Source of the DNA: an uncultured virus (IMG/VR IMGVR_UViG_3300031746_002572)
Taxonomy: Duplodnaviria; Heunggongvirae; Uroviricota; Caudoviricetes
Length of the DNA: 64,000 nt
Virus record (IMG/VR): IMGVR_UViG_3300031746_002572
Reading direction: 5' to 3' (one strand)
Positions 1,426 through 57,993 of this stretch are shown here, in pieces (position 1 is the stretch's first letter; each line of letters begins with the position of its first letter). The position numbers were made by a program, and so were the translations under genes. The notes beneath the pieces are model-generated. The model did no database searches. It was not told the DNA's origin and saw nothing but the letters and a program-made list of their open reading frames with translations.

Positions 1426-1438
1426 TTCATAAATAAAT

Positions 1439-1470
1439 TTGTAATAAGAATATAAATAATTGTATTTATA
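1439..1470 (+). promoter_or_regulatory. Conserved promoter-like motif, copy 1
   Basis: TTGTAATAAG-N11-TTGTATTTATA followed by AAGGAGG and ATG 1486; same spacing in six copies. Confidence 0.75.
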
Positions 1471-4684: not shown

Positions 4685-4945
4685 ATTATATCAATAGGCC
4701 AATAATTATATATATAATTTATAAATTATCAGATATAAATTATATATAACTATTAATTATATGTTATATTTTAGATATTAAGTTCTTTTTCTAGTTTTAT
4801 TAAGATTTAAAAATATAAGGATATAAATATTTTAAATAAAAATTAAATTAAAATAAATTATTAATAATATTAATAATCTAATATAATCTATAAGAGGTAA
4901 AATAAATAAGTAATATTTTTGTTTTAAAAAATAGTAAAAATAAAT
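4685..4945. other. Extremely AT-rich non-coding tract with inverted repeat, candidate replication origin
   Basis: Almost no G/C; TATATATAATTTATA...TATAAATTATATATA inverted repeat near 4710-4750. Confidence 0.35.
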
Positions 4946-4977
4946 TTGCAATAAGAAAAAAATAATTTGTATTTATA
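4946..4977 (+). promoter_or_regulatory. Promoter-like motif, copy 2, upstream of array A
   Basis: TTGCAATAAG-N11-TTGTATTTATA. Confidence 0.75.
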
Positions 4978-5055
4978 GGTATGAGAGAAATGAATTTTCT
5001 GTTTTTGGTTTTATTATATTTATCTGTATTTTAATATTTAAATGAAGGAGGGTAT

Positions 5056-5367
5056 ATGAGTATCATAGAAAAGGGTCTGGAAAAAACAGCAGAGGATAAG
5101 AAGAAAGAGATTGTCAACGCTTTTAATAGTAGATTGGAAGTTCTTACAATAGGATTTGCCAGACGTTTGAGAGAACATCCGAGAGCGCAAACTTATATGA
5201 AAGAACTTTATAATATGTTAAAAACTTTGATTTCTGAATATATTATTGATGGTAAAATTCCAGAAGATAAAAGTCCTTCTAAAGAACAAAGAGAAGGTTC
5301 TGTTGCTAGAACTATTGAAATATCTGAAAGAAAAGAAAATAAAATTAAGGAAAGAATTTCTTCTTAA
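5056..5367 (+). CDS. Hypothetical protein
   Basis: AAGGAGG SD; 103 aa. Confidence 0.7.
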   Translation: MSIIEKGLEKTAEDKKKEIVNAFNSRLEVLTIGFARRLREHPRAQTYMKELYNMLKTLISEYIIDGKIPEDKSPSKEQREGSVARTIEISERKENKIKERISS

Positions 5368-5377
5368 AAATATTAAT

Positions 5378-5414
5378 GTAAACTACCACGGGTACAAGAC
5401 CCGTGGTTTCCTTG
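5378..5414 (+). mobile_element. IS200/IS605-end-like hairpin remnant
   Basis: GTAAACTA-CCACGGGT-ACAAG-ACCCGTGG-TTTCC; related hairpins at ~47986 and ~56468; no transposase. Confidence 0.45.
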
Positions 5415-5661
5415 CGAAAGGATTATGAAAAAAATAACAAAAAAAGACATTGATTGGGTTTGTAATGCTTCTTTTGGTAGACATAAAAGCCCAGACATTG
5501 CAATCAAAAAATTTACTCTACGCCAAATTGCATCTGTAATTTTAATATGTTGGGAGGCTGGTAAGAAAGGTGTACTTTCAATAAATAAAGGTTGAAATTT
5601 ACTATAATATCATTCGTGTGGTGAACGTTATGGTAAAGTGGACTTTAAAATAAAAGGATAA

Positions 5662-5733
5662 AAATTATCTGAAAAATTTAAACCGTTTGTTGATAAAGTG
5701 TTAAATAAGGGAATGACAACATATCACTAGTTG
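5662..5733 (+). repeat. 72-bp attI-like array head (exact inverted copy at 57726-57797)
   Basis: Identity ends at the GTTG that starts the first cassette; core GACAAC-ATATCACTA-GTTG. Confidence 0.85.
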
Positions 5734-5770
5734 TGGGAAAGCGGGCTATAAAATTGAAAGGAGCGCGTGA

Positions 5771-6100
5771 ATGACAAAAGAAACTTTGGCGGCAATGTTC
5801 CACGAAACGTATGAGCACCTTGCTCCGGCTTTCGGGTATGTTACCAGAAAATCTACCCGTTGCAATTTTTCTGAGTTGCCGCAAAAAAACAAAGCATTAA
5901 TGATTGCGGTTTGCGGAACAATTCTGAACGCGCTCCAAGATAAGGAATCACCCGCCATCCCACAACAACCGCTTTGTGCTTCGGGCGATGCCAAATTGCC
6001 GCCATTGCCAGATTGTTGTGTGGAATGCCTTGAGGAAAGTATGAAAACTGATGATAATTCGTGTTGTGCTGCACTGCGGCGGCACTTCACAAAGCGGTAA
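5771..6100 (+). CDS. Cassette hypothetical protein; C-terminus encoded by the attC-like hairpin
   Basis: SD AAGGAG; ORF reads through 5960-6100. Confidence 0.7.
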   Translation: MTKETLAAMFHETYEHLAPAFGYVTRKSTRCNFSELPQKNKALMIAVCGTILNALQDKESPAIPQQPLCASGDAKLPPLPDCCVECLEESMKTDDNSCCAALRRHFTKR

Positions 6101-6109
6101 ACGTTGTCT
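5960..6109 (+). repeat. attC-like site
   Basis: CCACAAC...ACCGCTTTGTG / CACAAAGCGGT-AAAC-GTTGTCT. Confidence 0.8.
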
Positions 6110-6152
6110 AAAATAACCGTGCAAGGCCGAGACTGGCGCAGGAGAAAGACAA

Positions 6153-6341
6153 ATGACAAAAGAAAAAGAAGCTATTGAATTATTAAAAGAATGTGAAAAA
6201 GCATTTTTATCATGCGGAAATTGTCCAAATGTTAGACTTGATCCGTTTAATTTAGTTCCGTTTCGTTTGGGTTTTCGCATAGCTACGTTTTTGAAAGACG
6301 AAGATGCGCCAGAGAGCGCGGTTACTTCGGACAACAAATAA
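6153..6341 (+). CDS. Cassette hypothetical protein
   Basis: SD AGGAG; stop inside next attC-like site. Confidence 0.65.
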   Translation: MTKEKEAIELLKECEKAFLSCGNCPNVRLDPFNLVPFRLGFRIATFLKDEDAPESAVTSDNK

Positions 6342-6383
6342 AGGGTGATATTGAAACGATCACCCATTTATAGGACGTTGGTT
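6329..6383 (+). repeat. attC-like site
   Basis: GGACAAC-A-ATAAAGGGTGAT / ATCACCC-A-TTTAT-AGGAC-GTTGGTT, one bulged base. Confidence 0.85.
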
Positions 6384-6431
6384 GAAAGCCTGCCTAATTA
6401 CGGAGCGGGCGCAAAGAAAGGAAAAATTAAA

Positions 6432-6767
6432 ATGGGAATATATCATAGTACGAATATGATAAATAAAAAAATAAGACCAAAGAAAATAAATCTTAATGAT
6501 TATACTGTTGAACAAGCAACCCACAATTTATCATGCAGACATCAAATAGGCACGAGTGGGTTTGATTATACAATGCCATGTATTGTTTTATGGAAAAAAG
6601 GTAGTAATGCAAAAATAATTGTTTTTGGTGAAAGAGCGTGGGCAAATAAAGATTATAAAAAACACATACGATATGTAAACAGGTACAGTATTAAAATAAA
6701 AGATGCGCCCGCCAATATCGGAACGGCAGGCCATCAACCAACAGAGCAAAGTAAGGCGCAAGGCTAA
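6432..6767 (+). CDS. Cassette hypothetical protein ending DAPANIGTAGHQPTEQSKAQG
   Basis: Start reassigned to the ATG after AAGAAAGG. Confidence 0.7.
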   Translation: MGIYHSTNMINKKIRPKKINLNDYTVEQATHNLSCRHQIGTSGFDYTMPCIVLWKKGSNAKIIVFGERAWANKDYKKHIRYVNRYSIKIKDAPANIGTAGHQPTEQSKAQG

Positions 6768-6806
6768 ATTGCGAAGCGCAACTTCTTACTTTGTCGGACG
6801 TTAGGT
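6736..6806 (+). repeat. attC-like site (same core at 10916-10986 and inverted at 57314-57384)
   Basis: AACCAAC...CAAAGTAAG / CTTACTTTG-TCGGAC-GTTAGGT; inner TTGCG-AAG-CGCAA hairpin. Confidence 0.85.
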
Positions 6807-6811
6807 GCAAT

Positions 6812-7678
6812 ATGGCAAATTTTGAAATTATAGGCGCGGGGCAAGACACGGCGCGTCGTGCGCCGAAGATAAATACAATTACGTGCGGGGATTGTCTCGA
6901 AGTAATGCAAACGATACTGGACAAAAGCGTGGATATGGTGCTTTGTGATTTACCGTATGGTACAACACAATGTAAGTGGGATACGGTCATTCCGTTTGCC
7001 CCTCTTTGGGAGCAGTACGATAGGGTTTGCAGGGGGGCGATTGTCCTAACGGGGAGTGAGCCATTTTCAAGTTTATTGCGCGTGTCTAATTTAGCCCTGT
7101 TCAAATATGATTGGATATGGGAAAAATCAAAGGCGACAGGTCATTTAGATGCTAATCGCCGCCCGTTAAAAAAACATGAAACCATTTCTGTATTTGGCGA
7201 TTTGGGATGTTATAACCCCCAAGGGTTAGTCGTAAAAGATAAGCCTACTATAAGCAAGGGCAATAGGGGAAAGAAAGGCGAGGGAAGTAGCGGGGAATGT
7301 TATGGTTTGGCAAATAAAGACGCGGTGCAGACGCATAGTAATTATCCAAAATCAATCATCCCGTTTAATGTGGATATGAAAGCAGAGTTTCATCCAACTC
7401 AAAAACCCGTAGCCCTGTTTGAATATCTTATTCGCACCTACACAGACGAAGGTGATACCGTTCTTGATAACTGTATCGGCTCAGGAACAACCGCTATTGC
7501 CTGTATCAATACTGGTAGGAATTATATAGGAATTGAAAAAGAAGAGAAATACTGCCGGATAGCAGAAGAGCGCATCCATGCGCTAAGAAGCCCCGCGCAG
7601 GACACTAAGGAAATTTGCCATACAGCACCTAACAGCGCAAGCATGCAAATTGCGCAGGTGGAATTAGATTTATTATAG
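6812..7678 (+). CDS. DNA methyltransferase (N6A/N4C, beta class), cassette-borne
   Basis: GDCLEVM, DLPY, HPTQKPVAL, DNCIGSGTT. Confidence 0.92.
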   Translation: MANFEIIGAGQDTARRAPKINTITCGDCLEVMQTILDKSVDMVLCDLPYGTTQCKWDTVIPFAPLWEQYDRVCRGAIVLTGSEPFSSLLRVSNLALFKYDWIWEKSKATGHLDANRRPLKKHETISVFGDLGCYNPQGLVVKDKPTISKGNRGKKGEGSSGECYGLANKDAVQTHSNYPKSIIPFNVDMKAEFHPTQKPVALFEYLIRTYTDEGDTVLDNCIGSGTTAIACINTGRNYIGIEKEEKYCRIAEERIHALRSPAQDTKEICHTAPNSASMQIAQVELDLL

Positions 7679-7711
7679 CGCAATCAGCATGCGTTGCGCG
7701 AACTGTTGAAA
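7627..7711 (+). repeat. attC-like site
   Basis: ACCTAAC-A-GCGCAAGCATGC / GCATGC-G-TTGCGC-GAACT-GTT, bulged G; inner ATTGCGC/GCGCAAT. Confidence 0.85.
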
Positions 7712-7752
7712 GCCTGCCTAATTATGGAGCGGGCGCAAAGAAAGGAAATTAA

Positions 7753-7962
7753 ATGCACACAACGACCGGAGAAATAAAACCTTATTCAGAAGTGGAAAAA
7801 CTTTCGCCAAAAGAACAAAAAAACTTTGTAGAAATTAAGAGGGACTTGTCGGAACAGGAAAAAAATATGCGTCATATTATGCTTTACAGCCCGTGTGGCT
7901 GCGGGTCTGGAAAAAAATTTAAATTTTGTTGCCATGCTCATTTTCTTGGGAAAAAACCATAA
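7753..7962 (+). CDS. SEC-C motif protein
   Basis: SPCGCGSGKKFKFCC. Confidence 0.8.
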   Translation: MHTTTGEIKPYSEVEKLSPKEQKNFVEIKRDLSEQEKNMRHIMLYSPCGCGSGKKFKFCCHAHFLGKKP

Positions 7963-8213
7963 TGGACGGACTTCTTGCTGGTATTGGTGAAAAATTATTG
8001 CCATGTCCGATATGCAACGGCAGAGCAAAACGAACAATGGGTAAAAACGGTGGGTACATAGAATGCGTTGAATGCGGATTGCGGACACGGGATTGCAGAA
8101 AAAACGATAACGAACCAATAGATAACAGGTGGAATAAAAGACATGCGCCCGCAAATATAGGAACGGCAGGCCATCAACCAACTAATAAAGGCCAAAATCA
8201 TGAAGTTGGTTAA
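7962..8213 (+). CDS. Lar-family restriction alleviation-like Zn-ribbon protein
   Basis: LLPCPICNG...IECVECG...RWNKR; ATG overlaps upstream TAA. Confidence 0.65.
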   Translation: MDGLLAGIGEKLLPCPICNGRAKRTMGKNGGYIECVECGLRTRDCRKNDNEPIDNRWNKRHAPANIGTAGHQPTNKGQNHEVG

Positions 8214-8239
8214 AATAAAATTTTGGAGAAACGCTCGCT

Positions 8240-8431
8240 ATGAAATTAAAAATTGAAAAAGATATACAGAAGAAAGACACAATAAAAGAGGATATTAAAA
8301 AAATGGAGATTGGAGATTCTTTTGAACTTACAAAGTATAAAACGTGGCCTCATATTGTTGCTAAAGACATCGGAATTGTAATTGTAGGAATAAAAACAGA
8401 AGCAGGTTATAGATACTGGAGAAAAAAATAG
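8240..8431 (+). CDS. Small putative DNA-binding protein
   Basis: MEIGDSF...GYRYWR; SD GGAG. Confidence 0.55.
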   Translation: MKLKIEKDIQKKDTIKEDIKKMEIGDSFELTKYKTWPHIVAKDIGIVIVGIKTEAGYRYWRKK

Positions 8432-8501
8432 GCTCGCTAATTATAAAATCGTGAAAACCAGTTATTGTAGGCGGCGCGGAAAACCAAGAAAGGAAAACAA
8501 T

Positions 8502-8717
8502 ATGACAGTCCTCGAACTGAAAAGAATGCTGGGAAACTATCCTGATGACATGGAAGTAATTGTTGATAGATGCAGCGACTACACCTCCATTGAGGAAGGC
8601 GAGTGGTCAGTAGTGAAGGCTGTCAAAATCAATTACGGGTTTATGCGATCACACAAGACCATGAGCGATGAGAACAAAGCAAACGAGAAAGAGTATCTGC
8701 ATCTTGAAGGAAATTAA
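8502..8717 (+). CDS. Hypothetical protein
   Basis: MTVLELKRMLGNYPDDMEV; SD AAGAAAGG. Confidence 0.7.
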   Translation: MTVLELKRMLGNYPDDMEVIVDRCSDYTSIEEGEWSVVKAVKINYGFMRSHKTMSDENKANEKEYLHLEGN

Positions 8718-8764
8718 GACCGCATTCGCCGCCGACTATATGGTAAGCGCGGCAAGGAGGTTCT

Positions 8765-8983
8765 GTGGATTCTAACCAGGTTGTCAACACGTTCAACGAG
8801 TTGCGCAGCAATATCGAGGCGTGCGACAAGTCAACGCGAAGTATGCTCCCGGTTATTGCTGGACGGTTACAGCGTGCAACTCAGGATTGTTGCCGTGGCG
8901 AATGGTGTCAGGCGTTGACCGCGTTGAAGCGAGAGCTGCGCAACTGGGACATTATGAAGCAGCAGTGGATAGAGCCGCGCTAA
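8765..8983 (+). CDS. Hypothetical protein
   Basis: GTG start after AAGGAGG; flanked by GCGCGGC / GCCGCGC. Confidence 0.65.
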   Translation: MDSNQVVNTFNELRSNIEACDKSTRSMLPVIAGRLQRATQDCCRGEWCQALTALKRELRNWDIMKQQWIEPR

Positions 8984-9015
8984 AATGCGGAGCGGCGCGA
9001 AGAAAGGAAAATAAC

Positions 9016-9408
9016 ATGAGTGCAGATAATTGGACTTATTGCCCACGGTGCGAAGTAAAGGCGGAAACGGATCGTATTGCCTTTGAAGAAAAGGTTAAAA
9101 AATCGTATGGCAAGGTTTCGGCGGAAGAATATTTGCGGCTAACTGACCAACTTAAAAATCCTAAAAGGCTCGAACAAACACTTCGAGAAGATTACGAACT
9201 TGGAACTAATGAAGGATTTTTTAACGTTTCGTATCGAGCAGGTTGTTCAGTATGTAATTTTAGTTTTGAATTTCATGAGGAAAAAAAGATCGCGCCGCAG
9301 AATAATGCGGAAACGGCCAGCACAGACAAACAACAGCCCCATGCTGCGAGGGCGAAGCGCCACATGCCGGGAATACCGGCACGTCAGCATAGCGCGAACG
9401 TTGGTTGA
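9016..9408 (+). CDS. Hypothetical Zn-binding protein
   Basis: MSADNWTYCPRC...CSVC; SD AAGAAAGG; reads through attC-like site. Confidence 0.7.
   Translation: MSADNWTYCPRCEVKAETDRIAFEEKVKKSYGKVSAEEYLRLTDQLKNPKRLEQTLREDYELGTNEGFFNVSYRAGCSVCNFSFEFHEEKKIAPQNNAETASTDKQQPHAARAKRHMPGIPARQHSANVG
9328..9406 (+). repeat. attC-like site
   Basis: AAACAAC...ATGCTG / CAGCAT...GAAC-GTTGGTT; inner hairpins GGCG/CGCC and TGCCGG/CCGGCA. Confidence 0.75.
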
Positions 9409-9491
9409 AATTTCGTTTTGGCTGTACTATGCGGTTATTAGTAAGTGGTGGTTATTAATTTAGGCGGGCGCGACTACAAAAGGAGGAAAGA

Positions 9492-9737
9492 ATGGAAATT
9501 CTTGAAACGATTTTAAAATGGTTCAAACGATGTGCTGAACCAAATTTAAAGCGGAGATATTCAAGTTGTCCGATCTGTGGAGCAACTTGGTGGGACAACA
9601 AGGAACAACATAATCGTGATTGCTGGATACCGGAATTAGAAAATAAATTAAGAGCGCCCGCCAAAGACAAAAACGGGCAAAACGAAACATCAACCAACAG
9701 CCCTATTTTGCAACCGCAGGAACCGACAGCAACATAG
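9492..9737 (+). CDS. Cassette hypothetical protein (CPIC...H..DC)
   Basis: SD AGGAGG. Confidence 0.7.
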   Translation: MEILETILKWFKRCAEPNLKRRYSSCPICGATWWDNKEQHNRDCWIPELENKLRAPAKDKNGQNETSTNSPILQPQEPTAT

Positions 9738-9751
9738 GGCAAACGTTGTAT
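9692..9751 (+). repeat. attC-like site
   Basis: AACCAAC-A-GCCCTAT / ATAGGGC-AAAC-GTTGTAT. Confidence 0.8.
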
Positions 9752-9783
9752 GCCATTTTGCGCGAACATGAAAGGGGCGACAA

Positions 9784-10068
9784 ATGAATATTAAAATTCT
9801 CGATGCTAAAAAAGAGACATATTGGTATTCACGATTTATTGGGTCCGTGTTTGAAGTTACCGGGAAAGACAGTCCTGCTGGTTATTTTGTTCGACATGAT
9901 GGTTTTGATCAGCAGTATGTTGTTGACAAAGCAGATTGTCGCCCCACGACGAAAGGAACGCGCAAAACGGAGAAGCGTAGCACGGGGGCAGTAGCACATA
10001 CAACTGGCGCTATGCTAAAATGCCCTCATTGTGGAAAGGAAATTCGTATCGTAGGCACATCAGCATAG
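9784..10068 (+). CDS. Cassette hypothetical protein
   Basis: SD AAGGGG; C-terminal CPHC encoded in the hairpin loop. Confidence 0.7.
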   Translation: MNIKILDAKKETYWYSRFIGSVFEVTGKDSPAGYFVRHDGFDQQYVVDKADCRPTTKGTRKTEKRSTGAVAHTTGAMLKCPHCGKEIRIVGTSA

Positions 10069-10083
10069 CGCCATACGTTGGTG
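9998..10083 (+). repeat. attC-like site
   Basis: ATACAAC-TGGCGCTATGCT / AGCATAGCGCCA-TAC-GTTGGTG. Confidence 0.85.
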
Positions 10084-10123
10084 TAAAAATCGGCGGGTGG
10101 AATGCGCGCCAAGAAAGGAAATT

Positions 10124-10405
10124 ATGGAAAAAGATAAAGAGCCTTTTGCGTATCAATATGACCATGATAATGGGAACGATTTTATTATAACTCGCGCAAG
10201 TAACAGCAACACGTATTTTGGCAAAGAAGCAAACGATTTAATGTTTGAAATGTATAAAAGGCAAAGGAATAATGATTTTTATCCTAACGAATTTAATAAC
10301 CAGTTATTGATTGAATTGAATAACAGAAAAGAATGGGCGCGCTCAAATAGATATGTTTTGGCCGCCGATTCATCAACCAACAGCCCTTATATGGCGCAAG
10401 GCTAA
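10124..10405 (+). CDS. Cassette hypothetical protein
   Basis: ATG after AAGAAAGG. Confidence 0.65.
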   Translation: MEKDKEPFAYQYDHDNGNDFIITRASNSNTYFGKEANDLMFEMYKRQRNNDFYPNEFNNQLLIELNNRKEWARSNRYVLAADSSTNSPYMAQG

Positions 10406-10439
10406 ATGAGTACACTTCATATAAGGGCATACGTTGGTT
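10375..10439 (+). repeat. attC-like site
   Basis: AACCAAC-A-GCCCTTATATG / CATATAAGGGC-ATAC-GTTGGTT. Confidence 0.85.
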
Positions 10440-10483
10440 GAAAGCCTGCCTAATTACGGAGCGGGCGCAGGAGAATTAAAGAA

Positions 10484-10633
10484 ATGACAAGACTTGAAGA
10501 CATAAAAAAGAATCTGCTTATTAAACACGAATTATCCGTACTGGATATTAATTGGAAATGTTTAAAGCAAGGGGAATTGGGAAAATTGATTTCATGGGAA
10601 ATTAAAAAAGACAAAGGAAGGAAAATAAAATGA
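10484..10633 (+). CDS. Small cassette protein (49 aa, below ORF-track cutoff)
   Basis: SD AGGAG; MTRLEDIKK...; ATGA overlap with next gene. Confidence 0.55.
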   Translation: MTRLEDIKKNLLIKHELSVLDINWKCLKQGELGKLISWEIKKDKGRKIK

Positions 10634-10947
10634 CAAATGAATTAAATTTACGCCAGGATGGATTACCATTATTCCATTCGGAAGACAGATTGTTTTTTGG
10701 CAGAAAAGAAAATGGCGATGTTATCATTATTAAAAAAGGAGTAGATGCTGGGGGTGGTTTTGAAGAGATACTGTTTAAACAAATTATTCCAAACGATATT
10801 TGGTGTTCTGCTGTAGCGTCTGTTTCAAAATTGGGAGAAGAACAGGGGCGATGGTACAAGGCAACGGAATTTCATAACCAAGATGCGCCCGCGAATATCG
10901 GAACGGCAGGCCATCAACCAACAGAGCAAAGTAAGGCGCAAGGCTAA
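10630..10947 (+). CDS. Cassette hypothetical protein ending DAPANIGTAGHQPTEQSKAQG
   Basis: SD AAGGA. Confidence 0.7.
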   Translation: MTNELNLRQDGLPLFHSEDRLFFGRKENGDVIIIKKGVDAGGGFEEILFKQIIPNDIWCSAVASVSKLGEEQGRWYKATEFHNQDAPANIGTAGHQPTEQSKAQG

Positions 10948-10986
10948 ATTGCGAAGCGCAACTTCTTACTTTGTCGGACGTTGTAT
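10916..10986 (+). repeat. attC-like site
   Basis: Identical to 6736-6802 from AACCAAC to GTT. Confidence 0.85.
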
Positions 10987-11028
10987 GAAAGCCGGTTGCG
11001 AAAACCATTTATAGGAGCGGCGCAAATT

Positions 11029-11493
11029 ATGACAGAAAAGGAAATGGAAGAAAAAAATAAAAAGCACCTCGAAAGAGTAAAATTATATGAAAACACAATT
11101 ATTAATAATAAAAACAGGTTGTTTCTGTGTCCGTTTTGTGGAGACTTCCCAATTTTAGAAAGAAACAAACATTCGGGGAGTTTTATAAATATAGAATATC
11201 ATGCGAGATGTGATTGTATGCAAATTTCAACACCTTATTACAGAAATATTGAACTTGTTATAAAAAAATGGAATACCCGCGCCGCAATTGCGGAATCGCC
11301 CGCCATCATACAACAACCGCTTTGTGCTTCGGAGGCCAAATTGCCAAGTTTTGATGAGGTATTTAAAATGGTCAAGCAACATCTTTGTGCTGTTCGTGAT
11401 TCCGGAACTCTTTGGAAAAATATTGGCGATGATGAAATTATAAAAAACACTTATTTAGCTATTGAAAAACTTGGCAACTTCACAAAGTGGTAA
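11029..11493 (+). CDS. Lar-like Zn-ribbon protein with attC-encoded C-terminal extension
   Basis: LCPFCG...ARCDC...KKWNTR; tail ESPAIIQQPLCAS shared with 5771-6100. Confidence 0.6.
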   Translation: MTEKEMEEKNKKHLERVKLYENTIINNKNRLFLCPFCGDFPILERNKHSGSFINIEYHARCDCMQISTPYYRNIELVIKKWNTRAAIAESPAIIQQPLCASEAKLPSFDEVFKMVKQHLCAVRDSGTLWKNIGDDEIIKNTYLAIEKLGNFTKW

Positions 11494-11502
11494 ACGTTAG
11501 CC
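11308..11502 (+). repeat. attC-like site with long coding loop
   Basis: ATACAAC...ACCGCTTTGTG..TTGCCAAGTTTT / AAAACTTGGCAA..CACAAAGTGGT-AAAC-GTTAGCC. Confidence 0.8.
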
Positions 11503-11548
11503 AAAATAAACCGCGCTGAGTTTATAGTTCGGCGGCAATGGAGGAACA

Positions 11549-11821
11549 ATGGATTTGCATGTTTTATTTGGATCGGCCCTCTGCTACACTAAGGAATTTA
11601 CTATAAACGGTGTGGCCGCATCAGACAAGGATTTCGGCGAGAAATATGATCGATCACCCGATGATGCAGAACTGTATGGGTGCGGGGACATGCGGTTTAC
11701 TCGCAAGCCATCTCTCGCCGAAATTCTTTTGAAGTATGCTATAACCGAGGGTGAGTATTCAACCGTTTGTGATAAGTTGGAAGAGGGCCTTTCTTTTGGA
11801 TCGTGCGGATGGTGTGTTTAA
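11549..11821 (+). CDS. Cassette hypothetical protein (C-terminal CGWC)
   Basis: SD GGAGG. Confidence 0.7.
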   Translation: MDLHVLFGSALCYTKEFTINGVAASDKDFGEKYDRSPDDAELYGCGDMRFTRKPSLAEILLKYAITEGEYSTVCDKLEEGLSFGSCGWCV

Positions 11822-11865
11822 TTGTCCGCCGCCGAAAGAAAGATAATCGATGCGCGGTTTACATC

Positions 11866-11926
11866 GGCTAACAGCCAAAGCCGCGCAATGTCAAGGCCCA
11901 CTGCGGGCGTTTGGCGAACGTTGGGC
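11866..11926 (+). repeat. attC-like site
   Basis: GGCTAAC-A-GCCAAAGCC / GGC-G-TTTGGC-GAAC-GTTGGGC. Confidence 0.85.
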
Positions 11927-11984
11927 ACAATTCGCCCGCAATACATGGCCCCATCGTGGGGCCTAAGAATTAAGGAGAGGACAA

Positions 11985-12428
11985 TTGATTAAAAATTACA
12001 CAAGCGGTGTTCCAGCACAAAAAAGCGTTATGAAGATAGAAGAACTTCTGGCAATTCATGGAGCGCAAAGCGTAGTGAAGCAATACGAAAACCAGAAGTT
12101 AATTGCAGTTTCCTTTTTTATGCAGATCACCGGGAAGCTCATCCCATTTCGTCTACCCGCTAGAATATCTCAAGTGGAAAAAGTTTTAAAAGCAGAGGTC
12201 AAAAAACCACACAAGGGGACTCTTGACAGAATCACCGAACAATCGGAAAGAACAGCGTGGAAAATAATTTTGGATTGGGTAGAAGCGCAAATGGCGCTGG
12301 TTGAATTGCAACAGGCGGAAATGGCAGAGATATTCATGCCATATATGTGGAGTGAAAAATTAGGTCAATCTTTTTATCAAATTGCCGTTGAAAAAGGTTT
12401 TAATCTTTTGGAGGCACCAAAGAAATGA
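11985..12428 (+). CDS. Conserved phage-type hypothetical protein
   Basis: TTG start after AAGGAGAGG; IKNYTS...RTAWKIILDWVEAQMA. Confidence 0.7.
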   Translation: MIKNYTSGVPAQKSVMKIEELLAIHGAQSVVKQYENQKLIAVSFFMQITGKLIPFRLPARISQVEKVLKAEVKKPHKGTLDRITEQSERTAWKIILDWVEAQMALVELQQAEMAEIFMPYMWSEKLGQSFYQIAVEKGFNLLEAPKK

Positions 12429-12477
12429 AACATACGCATAGTTGTGGTAAAACCGCGCAAAGAAAGGAGTAACAACA

Positions 12478-12699
12478 TTGAAAAATAAATTTTGGTACAT
12501 AAAAGAAAGACATAATCCGCAATTCAAACAACCGTATTACGTTGCCCTTGGAAACATATCGAAGAAACAAGCAAAAGCGTATGAAAGTTCAATATACGGG
12601 GATAATACCGTTTTTAGCTTCGACTCGGAAGAAAGGTACAGAGAAGAAATTAAGAGATTAAAAAATGCGCGGTTCAACGTACAACAGGCCGCTTTATGA
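12478..12699 (+). CDS. Cassette hypothetical protein
   Basis: TTG start after AAGGAG; flanked by AACCGCGCA / TGCGCGGTT. Confidence 0.65.
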   Translation: MKNKFWYIKERHNPQFKQPYYVALGNISKKQAKAYESSIYGDNTVFSFDSEERYREEIKRLKNARFNVQQAAL

Positions 12700-12839
12700 A
12701 ACTATCGCATCACAAAGCGATGAACGCATGCGGTACGGGGCAAAAGCCCCAAATTGCCGAAGCGTCAACTTCCGCATAGCGAAAACGGTTGAAAGCCTGC
12801 CTAATTACGGAGCGGGCGCAAAGAAAGGAAAATTAAAGA

Positions 12840-13304
12840 ATGGTAACAAATAAAAATTCTCATATTTGGTGCAGGCTTTCTGGCCCAGGCCGTGGGGACT
12901 GTGAACATTTTATCGGATTGCCGGACAAAATAGATGATAGTGCAACCGATGAATATGGTATTCCATTTGGTTGGTGTGAATGGTGCTGGTTAGTTTTTAA
13001 ATTTGAAGAATTAAATAAAGTTTACAAAAATGCAAAGGCTGTCGTACAACATTGGAATGAATTTGGGCCAGAGTATGGACATGAAGAGCATGTTGATAGC
13101 TTGGAAAAGTCAATTAAAAAATACCATGAAGCAATTGGAACTAAAGATGCGCCCGCCAATCTTAGAACGGCAGGCCATCAACCAACAGAGCAAAGTAAGA
13201 CGCAGCCAGAAATTTGCCCTCATTATTTTGAGGCGACCGATGGGGTACATGCTTGCGTGGTAGGTCAATGTGCGTGTCATGGCAACCTATCTGGCGTGCG
13301 GTGA
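12840..13304 (+). CDS. Cassette hypothetical protein containing DAPANLRTAGHQPTEQSK
   Basis: Same leader/trailer shell as 6377, 7705, 10433 and 57725. Confidence 0.7.
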   Translation: MVTNKNSHIWCRLSGPGRGDCEHFIGLPDKIDDSATDEYGIPFGWCEWCWLVFKFEELNKVYKNAKAVVQHWNEFGPEYGHEEHVDSLEKSIKKYHEAIGTKDAPANLRTAGHQPTEQSKTQPEICPHYFEATDGVHACVVGQCACHGNLSGVR

Positions 13305-13323
13305 ACATAAGGAGGCGGCGCAA

Positions 13324-13674
13324 ATGACAAAAACAAAACATCATTTTGGAAGATTAGAATTTAAAAGCAACAACCTAAAGTTACTTGATAAATTAAAACT
13401 ATTTTTTTACCTTTTGTTTAATAAAAAAATTGTGTTTGTAAATATAGAATTGATAGTAGAAAGCGGCATGATAGAAAATGAACTTGCTTTACTTTGTGAA
13501 GTTGCTTCGCCGGGAATGTTTCCAACCACTGTTCTTACATCAAATATTCTTTGCAATTGGCCTCGTGAACGTATTGTAAGATTTGCAAAGCATCTTCTTG
13601 GTGATAAGTGCCAGGAATGCCGCGCTTGTGAAAACAAGGAAGCGATTGCCACAACCGAGGAAAGGAAAACATGA
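13324..13674 (+). CDS. Hypothetical protein
   Basis: ATG after AAGGAGG. Confidence 0.6.
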   Translation: MTKTKHHFGRLEFKSNNLKLLDKLKLFFYLLFNKKIVFVNIELIVESGMIENELALLCEVASPGMFPTTVLTSNILCNWPRERIVRFAKHLLGDKCQECRACENKEAIATTEERKT

Positions 13675-13856
13675 AAATCTCTATTGCCGAACACATACAA
13701 GAAATTGATAGATTAGTAAAGCGATATGGAGTTGAGTTTGATTATTATTCGTGGAACGAAATAAAAACAGCACTACAAACGCGATGTCCAAATTTAATAG
13801 AAGATAAAAACAAAATATGGAGATGTAAAATTATAATTGAAGATGCGCAAAAATAA
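13671..13856 (+). CDS. Hypothetical protein
   Basis: ATGA overlap; SD AAGGA. Confidence 0.6.
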   Translation: MKISIAEHIQEIDRLVKRYGVEFDYYSWNEIKTALQTRCPNLIEDKNKIWRCKIIIEDAQK

Positions 13857-13876
13857 TGAAGTTTGGCATAGATGTT

Positions 13877-13997
13877 TAATAACCGTATGGCGAAGCAAAT
13901 TTGGCAACCAACGGAAATAGGAATTGTACCAGCAATGAACCTATTACTTATAGCCGTTGTCTGGTGTTGCCAAACTTCGCCATACTCTATGTTAATT
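13877..13997 (+). repeat. attC-like site
   Basis: TAATAAC-C-GTATGGCGAAG..TTTGGCAAC / GTTGCCAAA-CTTCGCCATAC-TCTAT-GTT. Confidence 0.8.
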
Positions 13998-14028
13998 GGT
14001 GGAAACACGGCACGAAGGAGGCCGCACA

Positions 14029-14199
14029 ATGAAAAAAACAAAAGACGATATTGAACTTTCGATTCGAGCAGCAAAACTTGGGAAAAAAGTTCTTACCTTG
14101 GTTGCTATTACAGATAAGGGTCTTGCCTTGCTTATATTGAAGGAAATTGCTGAAATATTAAAAGAAACTGAAAAATGGCTAAAATCATGCGCAGCTTAA
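14029..14199 (+). CDS. Last cassette hypothetical protein
   Basis: SD AAGGAGG; followed by trailer and a truncated attC-like site to ~14289. Confidence 0.6.
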   Translation: MKKTKDDIELSIRAAKLGKKVLTLVAITDKGLALLILKEIAEILKETEKWLKSCAA

Positions 14200-14325
14200 T
14201 TAGATTTTTGGCGTACCGTGCATCCATCAACAAACAAAGTAAGGTGCAGGGCTAAATTGCCGAAGCGTAAACTTCGGCATAGGTTGAATGTTATTAATAG
14301 GTAAAAGAATAATTCAACAGATATT

Positions 14326-16616: not shown

Positions 16617-16618
16617 AT

Positions 16619-16650
16619 TAGTAATAAGGAAAAGAATAATTGTATTTATA
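16619..16650 (+). promoter_or_regulatory. Promoter-like motif, copy 3
   Basis: TAGTAATAAG-N11-TTGTATTTATA, then AAGGAG and ATG 16667. Confidence 0.7.
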
Positions 16651-24587: not shown

Positions 24588-24603
24588 AAAAACTGTATTT
24601 ATA
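24572..24603 (+). promoter_or_regulatory. Promoter-like motif, copy 4, pointing into array B
   Basis: TGGTAATAAG-N11-CTGTATTTATA, 15 bp before the first attC. Confidence 0.65.
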
Positions 24604-56425: not shown

Positions 56426-56460
56426 TTAATTAAAAATATCCTATTTTAATTCTTCTATTC

Positions 56461-56494
56461 TGACTACTCCCACGACTAAAGTCGTGGGGTTCTA
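56461..56494. mobile_element. IS200/IS605-end-like hairpin remnant (may act as terminator)
   Basis: TGACTACT-CCCACGACT-AA-AGTCGTGGG-GTTC. Confidence 0.45.
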
Positions 56495-56744
56495 TTTTAT
56501 TTGGAAACTCAAAATTCATTTTAGCATCATAAATTTGTGCTTTTAATATTTTTGTTTTTCTCATTGCGAGTGTTCCTTCAAAATTTTATTACCGAGTTTT
56601 GCACTTTAGCCGGTTGTACGTTGGTCTGATTTTGAAGCCGCGCATTCATTGGACATTGATATTCCGCGCAATCATAATATTTCAATATTTTGCAAATATT
56701 GTTTTTTGTTAATTCTGGACAAAATTTTCGTAAGTCTTTAAAAT

Positions 56745-57287
56745 TTACTTCCATATTTTTCCTTTCTTTTGTGCCACTCTTAAAATTATTTCGGTATTAC
56801 CTTTATATCCTCGCTGATAATATAAGCAACCAACAGGGAAACCAAAAGCGAATCCATGTTGCTGTCCTCCACCCATGTATAATATTTCTTTCAGACCCCC
56901 GTACTGTTCTACCATTTGCATTATCTTATTGCTCTTTAATGCTTTAGCGACGGGAACAAAAAGAACGATATTATCCGCAACCATAAAACAATGCTCTAAA
57001 AAATTATCGTAAATAGAATATGGTGGGTTAGTCATTATCCAATCAACCTTTTTATTCCACTTAAAAAAATCTATTCCATCCTCTATTTCACAACGATATT
57101 TTGGCTGGTTGAATAAATCGAAAAAAACATTTTTACCTGCGGCTGGTTCTAAAATCGTTCCTTTTGGTTTATACCAACCATAAATAAATTTTGCAGTTTC
57201 TTTTTTTGTCATCACGCTATCTGATGCAGTAGCAACTCCGCTTTTATTTGCTTTTGTTGGTTTTCCTTTTCTGGCGCAAAAATTCAT
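56745..57287 (-). CDS. DNA adenine methyltransferase, cassette-borne
   Basis: ILEPAAG, DFF, TNPPYS. Confidence 0.85.
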   Translation of the reverse strand: MNFCARKGKPTKANKSGVATASDSVMTKKETAKFIYGWYKPKGTILEPAAGKNVFFDLFNQPKYRCEIEDGIDFFKWNKKVDWIMTNPPYSIYDNFLEHCFMVADNIVLFVPVAKALKSNKIMQMVEQYGGLKEILYMGGGQQHGFAFGFPVGCLYYQRGYKGNTEIILRVAQKKGKIWK

Positions 57288-57313
57288 ATTAAAAGTTCCT
57301 CAAATTTTATTTC

Positions 57314-57384
57314 TGCCAACGTATGATAAAGTAAGAAGTTGCGCTTCGCAATTTAGCCTTGCGCCTTACTTTGCTCTGTTGGTT
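57314..57384 (-). repeat. attC-like site
   Basis: - strand AACCAAC-AGAGCAAAGTAAG...CTTACTTT-ATCATAC-GTTGGCA. Confidence 0.85.
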
Positions 57385-57679
57385 GATGGCCTGCCGTTCC
57401 GATATTCGCGGGCGCATGTCCTTGTAAAAATTCCTCAATTGCTTCACGACATTGATTGCATACACTTCTTGCCCTTTCATTGTTCGCGCAATCAAGGGCA
57501 TTCCTTAATAATTCTCTTCCTCTTCTGCCTGATAATCTTTCATGCTCAAATACTTTTGTTGCTTCTTCGGCTTCTAAATTTGCAGCATCCCAAGCTAAAG
57601 ACGCAACCGTTAACCTATGGGCTACTTCTCTCTCAGGACATTCAAAAACCAAAGAGTCTAAATATTCTTTTTTTGTCAT
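57353..57679 (-). CDS. Cassette hypothetical protein ending HAPANIGTAGHQPTEQSKAQG
   Basis: ATG after AGGAG. Confidence 0.7.
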   Translation of the reverse strand: MTKKEYLDSLVFECPEREVAHRLTVASLAWDAANLEAEEATKVFEHERLSGRRGRELLRNALDCANNERARSVCNQCREAIEEFLQGHAPANIGTAGHQPTEQSKAQG

Positions 57680-57725
57680 TCTTCGATTCTCCTGCGCCCG
57701 CTCCGTAATTAGGCAGGCTTTCAAC

Positions 57726-57797
57726 CAACTAGTGATATGTTGTCATTCCCTTATTTAACACTTTATCAACAAACGGTTTAAATTTTTCAGATAATTT
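57726..57797 (-). repeat. 72-bp attI-like array head (inverted copy of 5662-5733)
   Basis: Exact reverse complement. Confidence 0.85.
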
Positions 57798-57950
57798 AAA
57801 ACCATCTCGAATCAATTGATTAATTACAGCATATCTAATGTATTTTGATCTTGTTCTACATTTAATTTTACTTGCCATAATAAGTGCTTTATCTGCCAAT
57901 TCAGGTTCAAGATAAATTTTGTAGTTTTTTCTTAATGAATTCGTATCCAT
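57729..57950 (-). CDS. Ribbon-helix-helix (CopG-like) protein whose 3' end is the array head
   Basis: YKIYLEPELADKA...TRSKYIRYAV; the G of its TAG is the G of the first GTT. Confidence 0.7.
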   Translation of the reverse strand: MDTNSLRKNYKIYLEPELADKALIMASKIKCRTRSKYIRYAVINQLIRDGFKLSEKFKPFVDKVLNKGMTTYH

Positions 57951-57955
57951 ATATC

Positions 57956-57987
57956 TATAAATACAATTATTCAAAACCTTATTGCAA
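57956..57987 (-). promoter_or_regulatory. Promoter-like motif, copy 5, upstream of RHH gene and array C
   Basis: TTGCAATAAG-N11-TTGTATTTATA, 5 bp before ATG. Confidence 0.75.
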
Positions 57988-57993
57988 AAAAGA

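What the first reader, a model, noticed from the sequence alone, without database searches (positions are those of the whole stretch)
5662..5733. Identical 72-bp attI-like head starts two arrays 52 kb apart
Seen: 5662-5733 is the exact reverse complement of 57726-57797. Identity stops at ...GACAACATATCACTAGTTG, where different first cassettes begin (GTTGTGGGA vs GTTGGTTGA). The core has an inverted CAAC/GTTG pair like a tyrosine-recombinase simple site and lacks an attC-type stem. Inference: this is the primary integration site.
Basis: partly seen in the sequence, partly recalled or inferred. Interest (0 to 1): 0.85.

Follow-up and report, generated by a model that had tools for sequence, protein, structure and literature searches.

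The report
Phage cassette-array insertion site without integrase
The duplicated 72 bases are the conserved entry site where a large phage inserts small mobile gene cassettes, many of them anti-restriction genes, much as a bacterial integron does but with no integrase gene nearby.

Summary
Window 5662-5733 is the exact reverse complement of 57726-57797, and each copy heads a GC-rich array of hairpin-bounded cassettes in an AT-rich phage genome.

The 72-mer is the 3' end of a 74-aa ribbon-helix-helix (RHH) gene. The gene is whole at array B and cut down to its last 23 codons at array A.

I called a junction in 66 copies: 64 related loci, array B and one copy in a complete 253-kb phage. They carry 40 head variants with one layout: AAAATCAA, then AAGGGAATGAC, about 10 nt, then TAG|TTG. 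One identical head is followed by 12 different first cassettes in 14 loci. Identity breaks within 3 nt after GTT. Cassettes that rank first in one locus rank second in another.

The conserved blocks persist where the reading frame ends earlier or is shifted, so the constraint is on the DNA. The 253-kb phage also has a second head, cut down to 41 bp.

No tyrosine, serine or HUH recombinase was found in the window, in two complete phages or next to any locus. RHH is the only protein specific to the module.

My reading: an attI-equivalent site whose recombinase acts in trans, perhaps a host integron integrase. It is a new variant of phage attC clusters that lack an integrase.

The parts
5662..5733 (+). 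Head A: truncated copy of the RHH gene's last 23 codons plus the crossover TAG|TTG (G at 5730). A TAA at 5659-5661 closes the frame just upstream.
57726..57797 (-). Head B: the same 72 nt, here the true 3' end of the RHH gene. The crossover G is at 57729.
57729..57953 (-). RHH-like gene, 74 aa (MDTNSLRKNYKIYLEPELADK...KGMTTYH*). Its stop codon TAG ends on the crossover G.
5730..14290 (+). Array A, about 8.5 kb, 40-43% GC, 23 short + strand ORFs. Recognisable GTT junctions (G at): 6103, 6377, 6800, 7705, 8205, 9400, 9745, 10077, 10433, 10980, 11496, 11920, 12788, 14283.
56430..57729 (-). Array B, about 1.3 kb with 3-4 cassettes. The first attC-like site ends at the junction G 57320. The second cassette encodes a DNA methyltransferase-like protein (56745-57287).
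5699..5733 (+). Conserved core of the head: GTTAAAT (direct GTTA box), AAGGGAATGAC (block II, 5707-5717), 10-nt spacer, TAG|TTG.
6734..6808 (+). Example attC-like site: R'' AACCAAC, unpaired spacer, L''/L' stem, variable loop, spacer, R' GTT. Near-identical copies lie at 10914-10988 and 57310-57388 (-).
6791..7678 (+). Cassette cargo: N6/N4 DNA methyltransferase. Its cassette ends are 79-95% identical to cassette ends in other phages' arrays.
7926..8213 (+). Cassette cargo: Lar-like restriction alleviation protein. A second one is at 10981-11493.
57956..57988 (-). Repeat motif shared with 1420-1470, 4927-4977, 16600-16650 and 24553-24603, lying just upstream of the RHH start. It is a possible phage promoter that reads through RHH into array B. 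The copy at 4927-4977 lies upstream of the operon that runs into array A.
   Evidence: families D7, I19, I23. Promoter function is inferred; the sigma-70 scans were uninformative.

Best explanation
The 72-mer is the attI-equivalent of a phage-borne, integrase-less, integron-like gene-capture platform. The platform consists of a small RHH gene whose 3' end and immediate downstream DNA form a double-stranded site of about 45 bp: AAAATCAA, then (GTTA)nAnAAGGGAATGAC, then about 10 nt, then TAG|TTG. Circular cassettes that carry a folded attC-type hairpin (AAC, L stem, loop, L stem, GTT) are inserted by site-specific recombination exactly at G|TT. This places each newcomer first behind the RHH gene, whose promoter and translation run into the array. 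In the window the site has been copied once without the gene, and the copy founded a second, larger array in inverted orientation. The cargo is largely anti-restriction: orphan DNA methyltransferases and Lar-like proteins.

Shown: the site, its conservation at DNA level, the exact breakpoint, the turnover and re-ranking of cassettes, and the absence of a recognisable recombinase gene.

Inferred: the enzyme acts in trans. Given the GTT core and attC architecture I think a host integron-type tyrosine recombinase most likely, at roughly even odds given the rest. The RHH protein would bind in or beside the head as a regulator or architectural factor.
For: (1) Exact 72-nt inverted duplicate heading two arrays.

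(2) A junction could be called in 66 copies: 64 of the 71 fetched RHH loci examined, plus window array B and one G001 copy. They carry 40 distinct 45-nt heads with consensus a..AAAaTcAA.g..TT..A.AaGGGaaT.aC.....a.a..TAG|TTG.

(3) One identical head in 14 loci is followed by 12 different first cassettes. In one search, 7 of the 10 heads seen in 2 or more loci show 2 or more first cassettes.

(4) Among loci sharing at least 93% identical RHH 3' ends, 66 of 73 distinct pairwise breakpoints fall 0-3 nt after GTT. The other 7 lie 8-26 nt further in, where the two first cassettes begin alike.

(5) Behind the same head, the first cassette of L074 is the second of L037 (98% over 355 nt). The first of L069 is the second of L076 (98% over 747 nt). 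The first of L038 starts at base 600 of L039.

(6) The constraint is on DNA. Of 40 heads, the ORF stop is the crossover TAG in 14, lies 3-14 nt upstream in 14, and lies 20 nt or more upstream in 11, so that AAGGGAATGAC is non-coding there yet kept. In G001 the frame is shifted.

(7) The complete 253,664-bp T4-like phage G001 also has two heads, one with the whole RHH gene and one of only 41 bp.

(8) attC-like architecture. In 163 ACGTTR sites from 68 arrays the L-stem had a mean of 7.9 pairs against 5.3 in shuffles. 50 of 163 have a perfect stem of 7 or more, against 10% of shuffles, with 41 distinct L'' 7-mers among 48 distinct sites.

(9) No recombinase. The window had 0 among 65 backbone ORFs and 0 among 28 array ORFs. 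PF00589 six-frame search found 0 of 5 virus records against 14 of 14 control genomes. Pfam found none in 214 of 338 G001 ORFs, none in 65 of 67 G005 ORFs, none in 115 ORFs upstream of RHH and none in 37 downstream.

(10) RHH and a methyltransferase are the only proteins shared by the two complete phages G001 and G005. RHH and a cassette methyltransferase are the only module-specific ones among the 7 window ORFs with a G001 match.

(11) Phage attC sites are known to be recombined by a bacterial IntI1 (PMC9892861, section 3.4 read).
Against: No recombinase was identified, so the reaction itself is unproven. The window covers 64 kb of a 116-kb contig, so its own genome is not excluded as a source of the enzyme.

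Only GTTR of the canonical GTTRRRY is conserved. R'' reads nnACAAC or AACCAAC rather than RYYYAAC, and the cassettes carry an extra motif (GTTRnnnnnAAw) plus an outer stem unknown in integrons. An IntI-type enzyme is therefore not assured.

The hairpin statistics are moderate. Only 27% of the 163 sites beat all 20 shuffles. One example site folds with z -0.78 on the top strand and -1.67 on the bottom strand.

Some cassette boundaries (8450, 8723) lack a GTT site.

The host is unknown, and so is whether it has an integron.

The contigs of the probable source run do not cover the left flank of head A.
Confidence: 0.7

Rival explanations
1. A self-contained new recombination system. The phage supplies its own, so far unrecognisable recombinase, or the RHH protein recruits a non-integron host enzyme. 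The RHH protein would be the specificity factor for the head, so the resemblance to integrons would be convergent.
For: RHH is the only conserved protein of the module across unrelated phages, and the family is small and phage-restricted. It has 32 clusters at E<=0.001 among 1.84 billion representatives and only 2 hits, on short MAG contigs, among 185,579 species genomes. The site differs from canonical attI and attC in three ways: a long conserved block II, the extended cassette-start motif, and the outer stem. The 6 heads with a GGCGTT/GGCATT/GCCATT variant of block II go with RHH beta-strand variants (5 with RVY, L032 with TVF), whereas most GGGAAT-type heads carry K(I/G)Y. Weak Pfam hits include relaxosome accessory families: MobC_2 at 0.019 and NikA-like at 0.053.
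Against: No candidate enzyme is shared by the two complete phages at blastp E<1e-3 among ORFs of 40 aa or more. A 74-aa RHH protein has no known catalytic capacity (established knowledge of the fold). The beta-strand/block II co-variation may be a single inherited event, and block II partly encodes the protein's own C-terminus.
Confidence: 0.17
2. Homologous recombination between conserved cassette ends, as proposed for the promoter/stem-loop (PeSL) motifs of T4-type phages, shuffles the cassettes. On this view the head is only the shared left flank and not a recombination site.
For: Cassette starts and ends are conserved over 40-150 nt at 79-95% identity between arrays and phages. Many carriers encode RecA/UvsX, RecT or ERF. 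Some boundaries lack GTT. PeSL-mediated shuffling is described for T4-type phages (PMC2839356 and PMC4122927, search listing and start of the abstracts only).
Against: Head and attC share only (A)GTTG, too short for homologous exchange. Yet 12 different cassettes join one head at the same nucleotide, and 66 of 73 breakpoints are within 3 nt of GTT. This view also does not explain the frame-independent conservation of about 45 bp of head DNA, or why truncated heads found second arrays in two unrelated phages.
Confidence: 0.07
3. The head is conserved only because it encodes the C-terminus of the RHH protein. On this view the copy at 5662 is a gene fragment left by a duplication or rearrangement, and the arrays begin there by accident.
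For: The 72-mer is coding sequence at array B. FY-KGMT is a common C-terminus in the family.
Against: In 11 of 40 heads the ORF stops 20 nt or more before the crossover, yet AAGGGAATGAC and TAG are kept. In G001 they are kept in another frame. The fragment copies in the window (72 nt) and in G001 (41 nt) both retain exactly the conserved blocks and both head an array.
Confidence: 0.03
4. Assembly artefact. The 72-nt repeat let the assembler join strain variants, so that one genome does not truly hold two heads.
For: Unitigs of the probable source run break at 5662. No contig of that run covers 5000-5316, and depth is about 1 over 5317-5633.
Against: Two different left flanks and two different right flanks exist in the contig, so at least two copies of the repeat are needed whichever way they are paired. 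Swapping the pairs would only invert the 52-kb segment between them. Both arrays follow the local direction of transcription. G001, a complete record with terminal repeats, shows the same arrangement. The tool states that a hole in contig cover proves nothing.
Confidence: 0.03

Closest known systems
attI site of integrons (for example attI1 of class 1 integrons)
   Same: It sits at the head of a same-orientation cassette array. It is double-stranded and lacks a hairpin. The crossover with attC-type sites is at G|TT, and new cassettes enter at rank 1. GTTA-type boxes lie upstream of the crossover in the window. The L/R boxes and DR1/DR2 of attI1 are as named in the Figure 4 legend of PMC9892861.
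   Different: No adjacent integrase gene. The site is embedded in the 3' end of an RHH gene. A conserved block AAGGGAATGAC 11-21 nt upstream has no counterpart that I know of in attI sites (recalled, not tested). The L-box-like CAAC is not conserved. The site can be duplicated within one genome.
[quoted passage not shown] 2023, PMC9892861 (abstract and section 3.4 read)
   Same: attC-type arrays in lytic phage genomes without an integrase, with methyltransferase cargo. The proposed dependence on a bacterial IntI was shown there for 5 of 6 phage attC sites with IntI1.
   Different: Those are 17 scattered clusters of at least 2 sites, and in the parts I read no shared head is described. The authors only note inverted or multiple GTTRRRY motifs at some boundaries. 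Here a dedicated head plus RHH gene recurs in 40 sequence variants across unrelated phages, with population-level turnover at one nucleotide and arrays of up to about 14 junctions.
PeSL regulatory cassettes of T4-type phages (PMC2839356, PMC4122927; search listing and start of abstracts only)
   Same: Small accessory genes in hyperplastic regions of large lytic phages, flanked by conserved stem-loop-containing repeats and shuffled between genomes.
   Different: PeSL shuffling is attributed to homologous recombination between promoter/terminator motifs. Here the junction is a fixed G|TT, with an attC-type AAC...GTT hairpin and a unique head.
Integrase-mediated cassette insertion outside att sites (bioRxiv 10.1101/2022.09.11.507474; search listing and start of abstract only)
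   Same: It shows that an integron integrase can place cassettes at sites that are not attI, which makes action in trans on a phage genome plausible.
   Different: That route uses many loosely defined genomic sites. Here there is one conserved, long site.
Ribbon-helix-helix DNA-binding proteins (Arc/CopG/omega, AmrZ, PutA N-domain, NikA/TraM accessory factors)
   Same: The predicted fold matches: strand region 10-16, helices 17-29 and 35-49. The best structural matches by inspection of the listed titles are RHH proteins (AmrZ Z 4.8 with 50 residues aligned; PutA RHH Z 4.7, rmsd 1.6 over 44).
   Different: No Pfam family reaches its cut-off (best RHH_1 at E 0.0041). There is an extra C-terminal helix. 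The gene's 3' end doubles as a recombination site.

Membership tests
Integron attI site | Boundary between conserved platform and variable cassettes, with the crossover at G|TT of a GTT-initiated R box | tested here: met
   66 of 73 pairwise breakpoints lie 0-3 nt after GTT. There are 12 first cassettes behind one head. The two window copies diverge after CACTAGTTG.
Integron attI site | Adjacent gene for an integron integrase (IntI, a tyrosine recombinase) | tested here: not met
   None among the window's 65 backbone and 28 array ORFs. PF00589 found in 0 of 5 virus records, including the complete G001, against 14 of 14 controls. None in 115 upstream and 37 downstream ORFs of related loci.
Integron attI site | Recombines as double-stranded DNA, with no attC-type hairpin | tested here: met
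   Head plus 12 nt folds no better than shuffles on either strand (z +0.42 to +0.75). That it recombines as duplex is inferred.
Integron attI site | Simple site of inverted L and R integrase-binding boxes plus upstream direct repeats | tested here: inconclusive
   The window has GACAAC-N9-GTTG and direct GTTG/GTTA boxes. The inverted CAAC is not conserved among the 40 heads. The conserved blocks are AAAATCAA, AAGGGAATGAC and TAG. Protein binding is not testable here.
Integron attI site | IntI-catalysed attI x attC recombination | not testable with these tools
   This needs a recombination assay.
attC site / integron gene cassette | Imperfect inverted repeat R''(..AAC)-L''...L'-R'(GTT..) with unpaired spacers and a variable central part | tested here: met
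   Folds of 8 window sites. The commonest spacers are 1 nt and 4 nt. Lengths run 48-202 nt with median 78.
attC site / integron gene cassette | Structure conserved while sequence varies | tested here: met
   41 distinct L'' 7-mers among 48 distinct sites with perfect stems. 50 of 163 sites have such stems against 10% of shuffles. The signal is moderate: only 27% of sites beat all 20 shuffles in the looser test.
attC site / integron gene cassette | Core consensus RYYYAAC / GTTRRRY | tested here: inconclusive
   GTTR is constant and the following bases are mixed. R'' is mostly nnACAAC or AACCAAC. The attC covariance model of IntegronFinder is not available here, and Rfam has no match.
attC site / integron gene cassette | Bottom-strand extrahelical bases that set strand choice | not tested
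   Only one site was folded on both strands: bottom z -1.67, top -0.78.
CALIN (attC cluster lacking an integrase) | Two or more attC sites in series and no integron integrase nearby | tested here: met
   At least 14 junctions in array A and 1 internal junction (G 57320) in array B, with no integrase. The attC calls are mine, not IntegronFinder's.
PeSL modular shuffling (T4-type phages) | Exchange by homology within conserved promoter/stem-loop repeats | tested here: not met
   The head and cassettes share only (A)GTTG, and junctions fall at one nucleotide.
Ribbon-helix-helix superfamily (the gene product) | N-terminal strand plus two helices, with fold match to solved RHH domains | tested here: met
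   AF2 model with pLDDT 75.8. VIA-align top rows are RHH proteins by inspection of the titles, Z 4.0-4.8, covering whole domains. Z below 5 is modest. Pfam hits are sub-threshold. Foldseek found nothing at E<=0.001.

The most novel reading that the evidence does not exclude
Lytic phages of several unrelated lineages carry their own gene-capture device: an RHH gene plus a 45-bp entry site that accumulates anti-defence cassettes. It runs on a recombination chemistry that is not a phage- or integron-encoded IntI. Either the RHH protein recruits a different enzyme, or a wholly unrecognised recombinase is involved. That would make it a counterpart of the bacterial integron that arose or diverged independently on the virus side of the arms race.
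Probability: 0.2. Interest if true: 0.95.

Novelty: new variant of a known kind. Interest (0 to 1): 0.8.

Why it matters
Integrons are known as bacterial devices, and recent work shows that their cassettes store anti-phage defences. Here the mirror image appears: phages with a dedicated, conserved entry site that collects cassettes rich in orphan DNA methyltransferases and restriction-alleviation genes, placed where early transcription reaches them first.

It gives a defined sequence of about 45 bp and one small protein with which to test how cassettes enter a genome that encodes no integrase. It also makes the question of who supplies the recombinase directly testable. That question bears on the origin of integrase-less attC clusters in general. 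The arrays are also a ready catalogue of small unknown proteins that are likely counter-defence factors.

Tried and rejected
- Named phages: blastn of the head and RHH region found no match.
- Exact head and cassette-start patterns in IMG/VR gave 0 matches. An attC 22-mer also gave 0.
- A 14-base attC pattern in IMG/VR returned 117 stretches with one match each. Of the 80 loci screened, 1 was flagged and it proved a false positive. These were chance matches and the scan was wasted.
- The 342-aa protein upstream of RHH (57994-59022) has no relative in IMG/VR and no Pfam or PHROG family. By eye it is not integrase-like.
- The window's own genome is not held, so the other 52 kb of the 116-kb contig could not be searched.
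- L059 (202-kb contig) and L066 are not held as whole records.
- Conserved neighbours of RHH: none is shared across groups of loci.
- A profile of the RHH family against PDB sequences gave 0 hits at E<=10. Foldseek gave nothing at E<=0.001.
- Sigma-70 and terminator scans around both heads stayed within shuffle expectation.
- Rfam: no family in the window at gathering score, and none in 24400-28300 at E<=1. No tRNA was found.
- Reads: only contigs were on offer, so neither rare circles nor strand could be assessed. The joint 7701->6798 is reported only as a hint.
- Earlier notes of this scan: none for this genome.
- Literature: five searches found phage CALINs and PeSLs, but no paper describing a conserved phage head or an RHH-linked attI. 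The library holds open-access papers only.
- MAFFT alignment of 9 attC sites was not structurally consistent, so I built no covariance model and counted stems by script instead.

Full report
**The observation**

Window 5662-5733 (+) and 57726-57797 (-) are identical over 72 nt. The repeat finder lists them as an 81-nt inverted pair at 96% complementarity, with 51,974 nt between the arms. The last 34 nt occur exactly twice in the window at up to 3 mismatches, and none of 100 shuffles gave a match. Identity ends at CACTAGTTG. After it come GTTG|TGGGAAAGCGGG on the left and GTTG|GTTGAAAGCCTGCC on the right.

**Setting**

The window is part of a large AT-rich phage genome. It encodes a DNA polymerase III alpha subunit, a DnaB-like helicase, a primase, RecA-like, SbcCD-like and RuvC-like proteins, and a long glycan-synthesis cluster. 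Its contig is 116,007 bp long.

GC content is 28-30% throughout except at 5.7-14.3 kb, where it is 40-43%. That stretch (array A, + strand) and 57.7-56.4 kb (array B, - strand) consist of short ORFs, all in one direction, separated by sites that read AAC, spacer, stem, loop, stem, spacer, GTT.

Each cassette's first bases are the reverse complement of the bases in front of its own terminal hairpin. For example, GTTGTCTAAAATAACCG at a cassette start pairs with CGGTTACTTCGGACAAC at its end. Excised as a circle, the cassette would therefore restore a complete site, as in integrons.

**What the 72-mer is**

At array B it is the 3' end of a 74-aa ORF (57729-57953, -). The stop codon TAG of that ORF ends on the G of the GTT crossover. 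At array A only the last 23 codons are present, preceded by an in-frame TAA.

The protein has no Pfam family above threshold. Weak hits among its 23 aligned relatives are all ribbon-helix-helix families: RHH_1 at E 0.0041, RHH_3 at 0.034, MobC_2 at 0.019 and NikA-like at 0.053. An AlphaFold model (pLDDT 75.8) has an extended stretch at residues 10-16 followed by helices 17-29, 35-49 and 56-66. In an all-against-representatives structural search the top rows were, by their titles, RHH proteins: AmrZ at Z 4.8 and the PutA RHH domain at Z 4.7 with rmsd 1.6 over 44 residues. These Z values are modest.

The family is small. It has 22 proteins at E<=0.001 in the 5.8-billion-cluster collection and 32 clusters at E<=0.001 among 1.84 billion representatives. 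Among 185,579 species genomes there are only 2 hits, both on short MAG contigs.

Searches with the RHH alignment brought 66 metagenome loci and 5 IMG/VR loci. I could call a junction in 66 copies: 64 of the 71 loci examined, plus window array B and one G001 copy. Five contigs end too early, and two lack the motif I used as anchor. One head (L026/L028) was mis-anchored by my script, but one search shows that it too breaks after AAGTT.

The 66 copies carry 40 distinct 45-nt heads with the consensus a..AAAaTcAA.g..TT..A.AaGGGaaT.aC.....a.a..TAG|TTG...gaAAT.

One identical head occurs in 14 loci and is followed by 12 different first cassettes. In one search, 7 of the 10 heads seen at least twice show two or more first cassettes.

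Without assuming any motif, I compared loci that share at least 93% identical RHH 3' ends. Of 73 distinct pairwise breakpoints, 66 fall 0-3 nt after GTT. The earliest fall directly after GTT (G versus A). The other 7 lie 8-26 nt further on, in pairs whose first cassettes begin alike.

Behind the same head, cassettes change rank:
- The first cassette of L074 is the second of L037 (98% over 355 nt).
- The first cassette of L069/L070 is the second of L076 (98% over 747 nt).
- The first cassette of L038 starts at base 600 of L039 (99% over 292 nt).

This is the pattern expected if newcomers enter at the head.

**The constraint is on DNA, not only on protein**

Among the 40 heads, the RHH stop is the crossover TAG in 14 and lies 3-14 nt upstream in 14. 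In 11 it lies 20 nt or more upstream, so that AAGGGAATGAC is non-coding yet retained. The remaining head is the mis-anchored one. In G001 the ORF reads this stretch in another frame (...QGNDII*, then CTAGTTG) while the DNA AAGGGAATGACATCATTTAACTAGTTG is kept.

The three conserved blocks lie about 20 bp apart, which would put them on one face of the helix (inference).

The head does not fold.

**A second genome with two heads**

G001 is a complete 253,664-bp record with terminal repeats. It is T4-like, with gp23, gp20, gp32, UvsW/X/Y homologues and a family B polymerase. It carries the RHH gene with its head at 157,875 (-), and a second head of only 41 bp at 131,664 (-). The second head starts at CAAAGAGTTAGAC, is preceded by TTGACA-17-TATATT, and is followed by another GC-rich array. 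G005 (complete, 48 kb) and G003 (partial) have one head each.

The window phage and G001 are otherwise unrelated. Only 7 window ORFs find a G001 match, and the specific ones are RHH (57% identity) and a cassette methyltransferase.

Upstream neighbours of RHH differ widely between groups of loci. They include RNA ligase, RtcB, RecT, ERF/SSB, PolA, Gp157, helicases and NAD-salvage genes. The module therefore travels between phage lineages.

**The missing enzyme**

No tyrosine or serine recombinase and no HUH nuclease was found in any of the following:
- the window's 65 backbone ORFs and 28 array ORFs;
- G001, by six-frame PF00589 search (0 hits at E<=0.01, against 14 of 14 control genomes) and by Pfam on 214 of 338 ORFs; those under 120 aa and 11 that span piece boundaries were not scanned;
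- G003, G004 and G005 by PF00589;
- 65 of the 67 G005 ORFs of at least 60 aa;
- 115 distinct ORFs upstream and 37 downstream of RHH in the other loci.

G001 and G005, both complete, share only RHH and a methyltransferase at blastp E<1e-3. Either the enzyme comes from the host or it is unrecognisable. The GTT core and attC architecture, together with the published finding that IntI1 recombines attC sites of virulent phages into attI1 (PMC9892861, section 3.4), make a host integron integrase acting in trans my first choice, at about even odds.

**How attC-like are the sites?**

The architecture fits. In 163 ACGTTR sites from 68 arrays the best L-stem had a mean of 7.9 pairs against 5.3 in shuffles, and 54% had 8 or more, but only 27% beat all 20 shuffles. 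With perfect stems of 7 or more, 50 of 163 sites qualify against 10% of shuffles. Those 50 comprise 48 distinct sites with 41 different L'' 7-mers, so pairing is kept while sequence varies.

There are departures from the canon. Only GTTR is constant. R'' reads nnACAAC or AACCAAC. Cassettes start GTTRnnnnnAAw. In the main window family an outer stem (GAAAGCCTGCC...GCGGGCGCA against TGCGCCCGC...GGCAGGCCATC) extends the pairing about 40 nt beyond the R boxes.

**Cargo**

In the window the cargo includes an N6/N4 methyltransferase (6791-7678), a methyltransferase-like protein (56745-57287, phrog_799), and two Lar-like restriction alleviation proteins (7926-8213, 10981-11493). The remaining 24 of the 28 array ORFs scanned have no convincing family match; two had only weak, sub-threshold Pfam hits that look like chance. 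Downstream of RHH in the other loci, 9 of 37 ORFs of at least 130 aa are DNA methyltransferases (3 MT-A70, 4 N6/N4, 2 C5) and 1 is Lar-like.

**Reads**

Only contigs could be laid.
- The cassette at 8450-8723 occurs with 1 difference in runs of two other studies, between different neighbours.
- The attC-bearing bins 6585-6901 and 7536-7852 have summed depths of 381 and 506 (first bin) and 103 and 349 (second bin) in two other sediment runs, while most cassette interiors stay below 10.
- One contig of the probable source run joins 7701 back to 6798, that is, the end of the methyltransferase cassette to its own start. This could be a circle, a tandem copy or another array. It has depth 4.4 and only 34 nt on one side, so it is no more than a hint.
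- The same run has no contig over 5000-5316 and depth of about 1 over 5317-5633.

**Comparison and verdict**

The thing behaves like an attI, but it fails the membership test on the integrase. It qualifies as a CALIN, a kind already reported in phages (PMC9892861). What it adds is a conserved, dedicated head tied to an RHH gene, shared by unrelated lytic phages, with demonstrable turnover at one nucleotide.

Five literature searches found no description of this. The library holds open-access text only.

I rate it a new variant of a known kind, of high interest.

Noticed in passing
window 24599-28087: Seven copies of a 94-158-nt repeat spaced about 540-600 nt apart (one gap of 1091 nt in family D1). 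It reads ...AACGATAGAGCTGTGCGGAAATGAGG...ATGAAG...AACTAAACCTAACTTGGCCGCCAAGTTTTTTCC..., and each copy ends in a terminator-like hairpin. The copies lie between small ORFs without Pfam families. There is no Rfam match at E<=1, and the fold z-scores are +0.18 and -0.85. It may be a second kind of modular array or a family of small genes with a shared leader.
   Followed up: partly
window 1420-1470, 4927-4977, 16600-16650, 24553-24603 (+) and 57956-57988 (-): A conserved motif, AAATAAATTTG(T/C)AATAAG-N13-TTGTATTTATA, lies in front of several operons, including the RHH gene and the operon that leads into array A. It is a possible phage-specific promoter.
   Followed up: no
window 6693-6742, 8133-8182, 10873-10922, 13137-13186, 57378-57423 (-): Cassette ORFs read through the conserved DNA in front of the attC site, so unrelated proteins share a C-terminal tail (...DAPANIGTAGHQPT...). 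The same DNA pairs with the conserved cassette start, forming an outer stem of about 40 nt beyond the R boxes. Its function is open: it could be part of the recombination site, an RNA processing site or a translational control element.
   Followed up: partly
window 7701 joined to 6798: A contig of the probable source run joins the end of the methyltransferase cassette to its own start (depth 4.4 against about 14-20 for the array). This is the junction expected of an excised circle, but a tandem copy or another array would give the same junction.
   Followed up: no
window 8450 and 8723: The unit 8450-8723 is found 99.6% identical in two other studies' runs between different neighbours. Yet neither of its boundaries has an AAC...GTT site. 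So some units move or are fused without a recognisable attC.
   Followed up: no
RHH alignment and heads: The 6 heads with a GGCGTT/GGCATT/GCCATT variant of block II belong to RHH proteins with variant predicted DNA-reading strands (5 read D(Y/F)RVY(L/M)EP; L032 reads ETTVFLEH). Most GGGAAT-type heads go with DYK(I/G)Y(L/M)EP. This is possible protein/site co-variation, but it may be a single inherited event.
   Followed up: partly
window 37462-52952: A long cluster for sugar and nonulosonic acid synthesis and transfer sits inside the phage genome: NeuB, a CMP-type cytidylyltransferase, an aminotransferase, a radical SAM/SPASM protein, an epimerase, several glycosyltransferases and a methyltransferase.
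   Followed up: no
G001 (L006 12726-16229): The ribonucleotide reductase large subunit of the related T4-like phage carries an intein with a LAGLIDADG domain. The genome is also rich in HNH, GIY-YIG and NUMOD3 homing-endonuclease-like genes.
   Followed up: no
window 5662-5733 and 57726-57797: The two heads are inverted, so recombination between them, whether site-specific or homologous, would flip the 52-kb segment that holds the replication and glycan genes. The contigs could not show whether both orientations exist.
   Followed up: no
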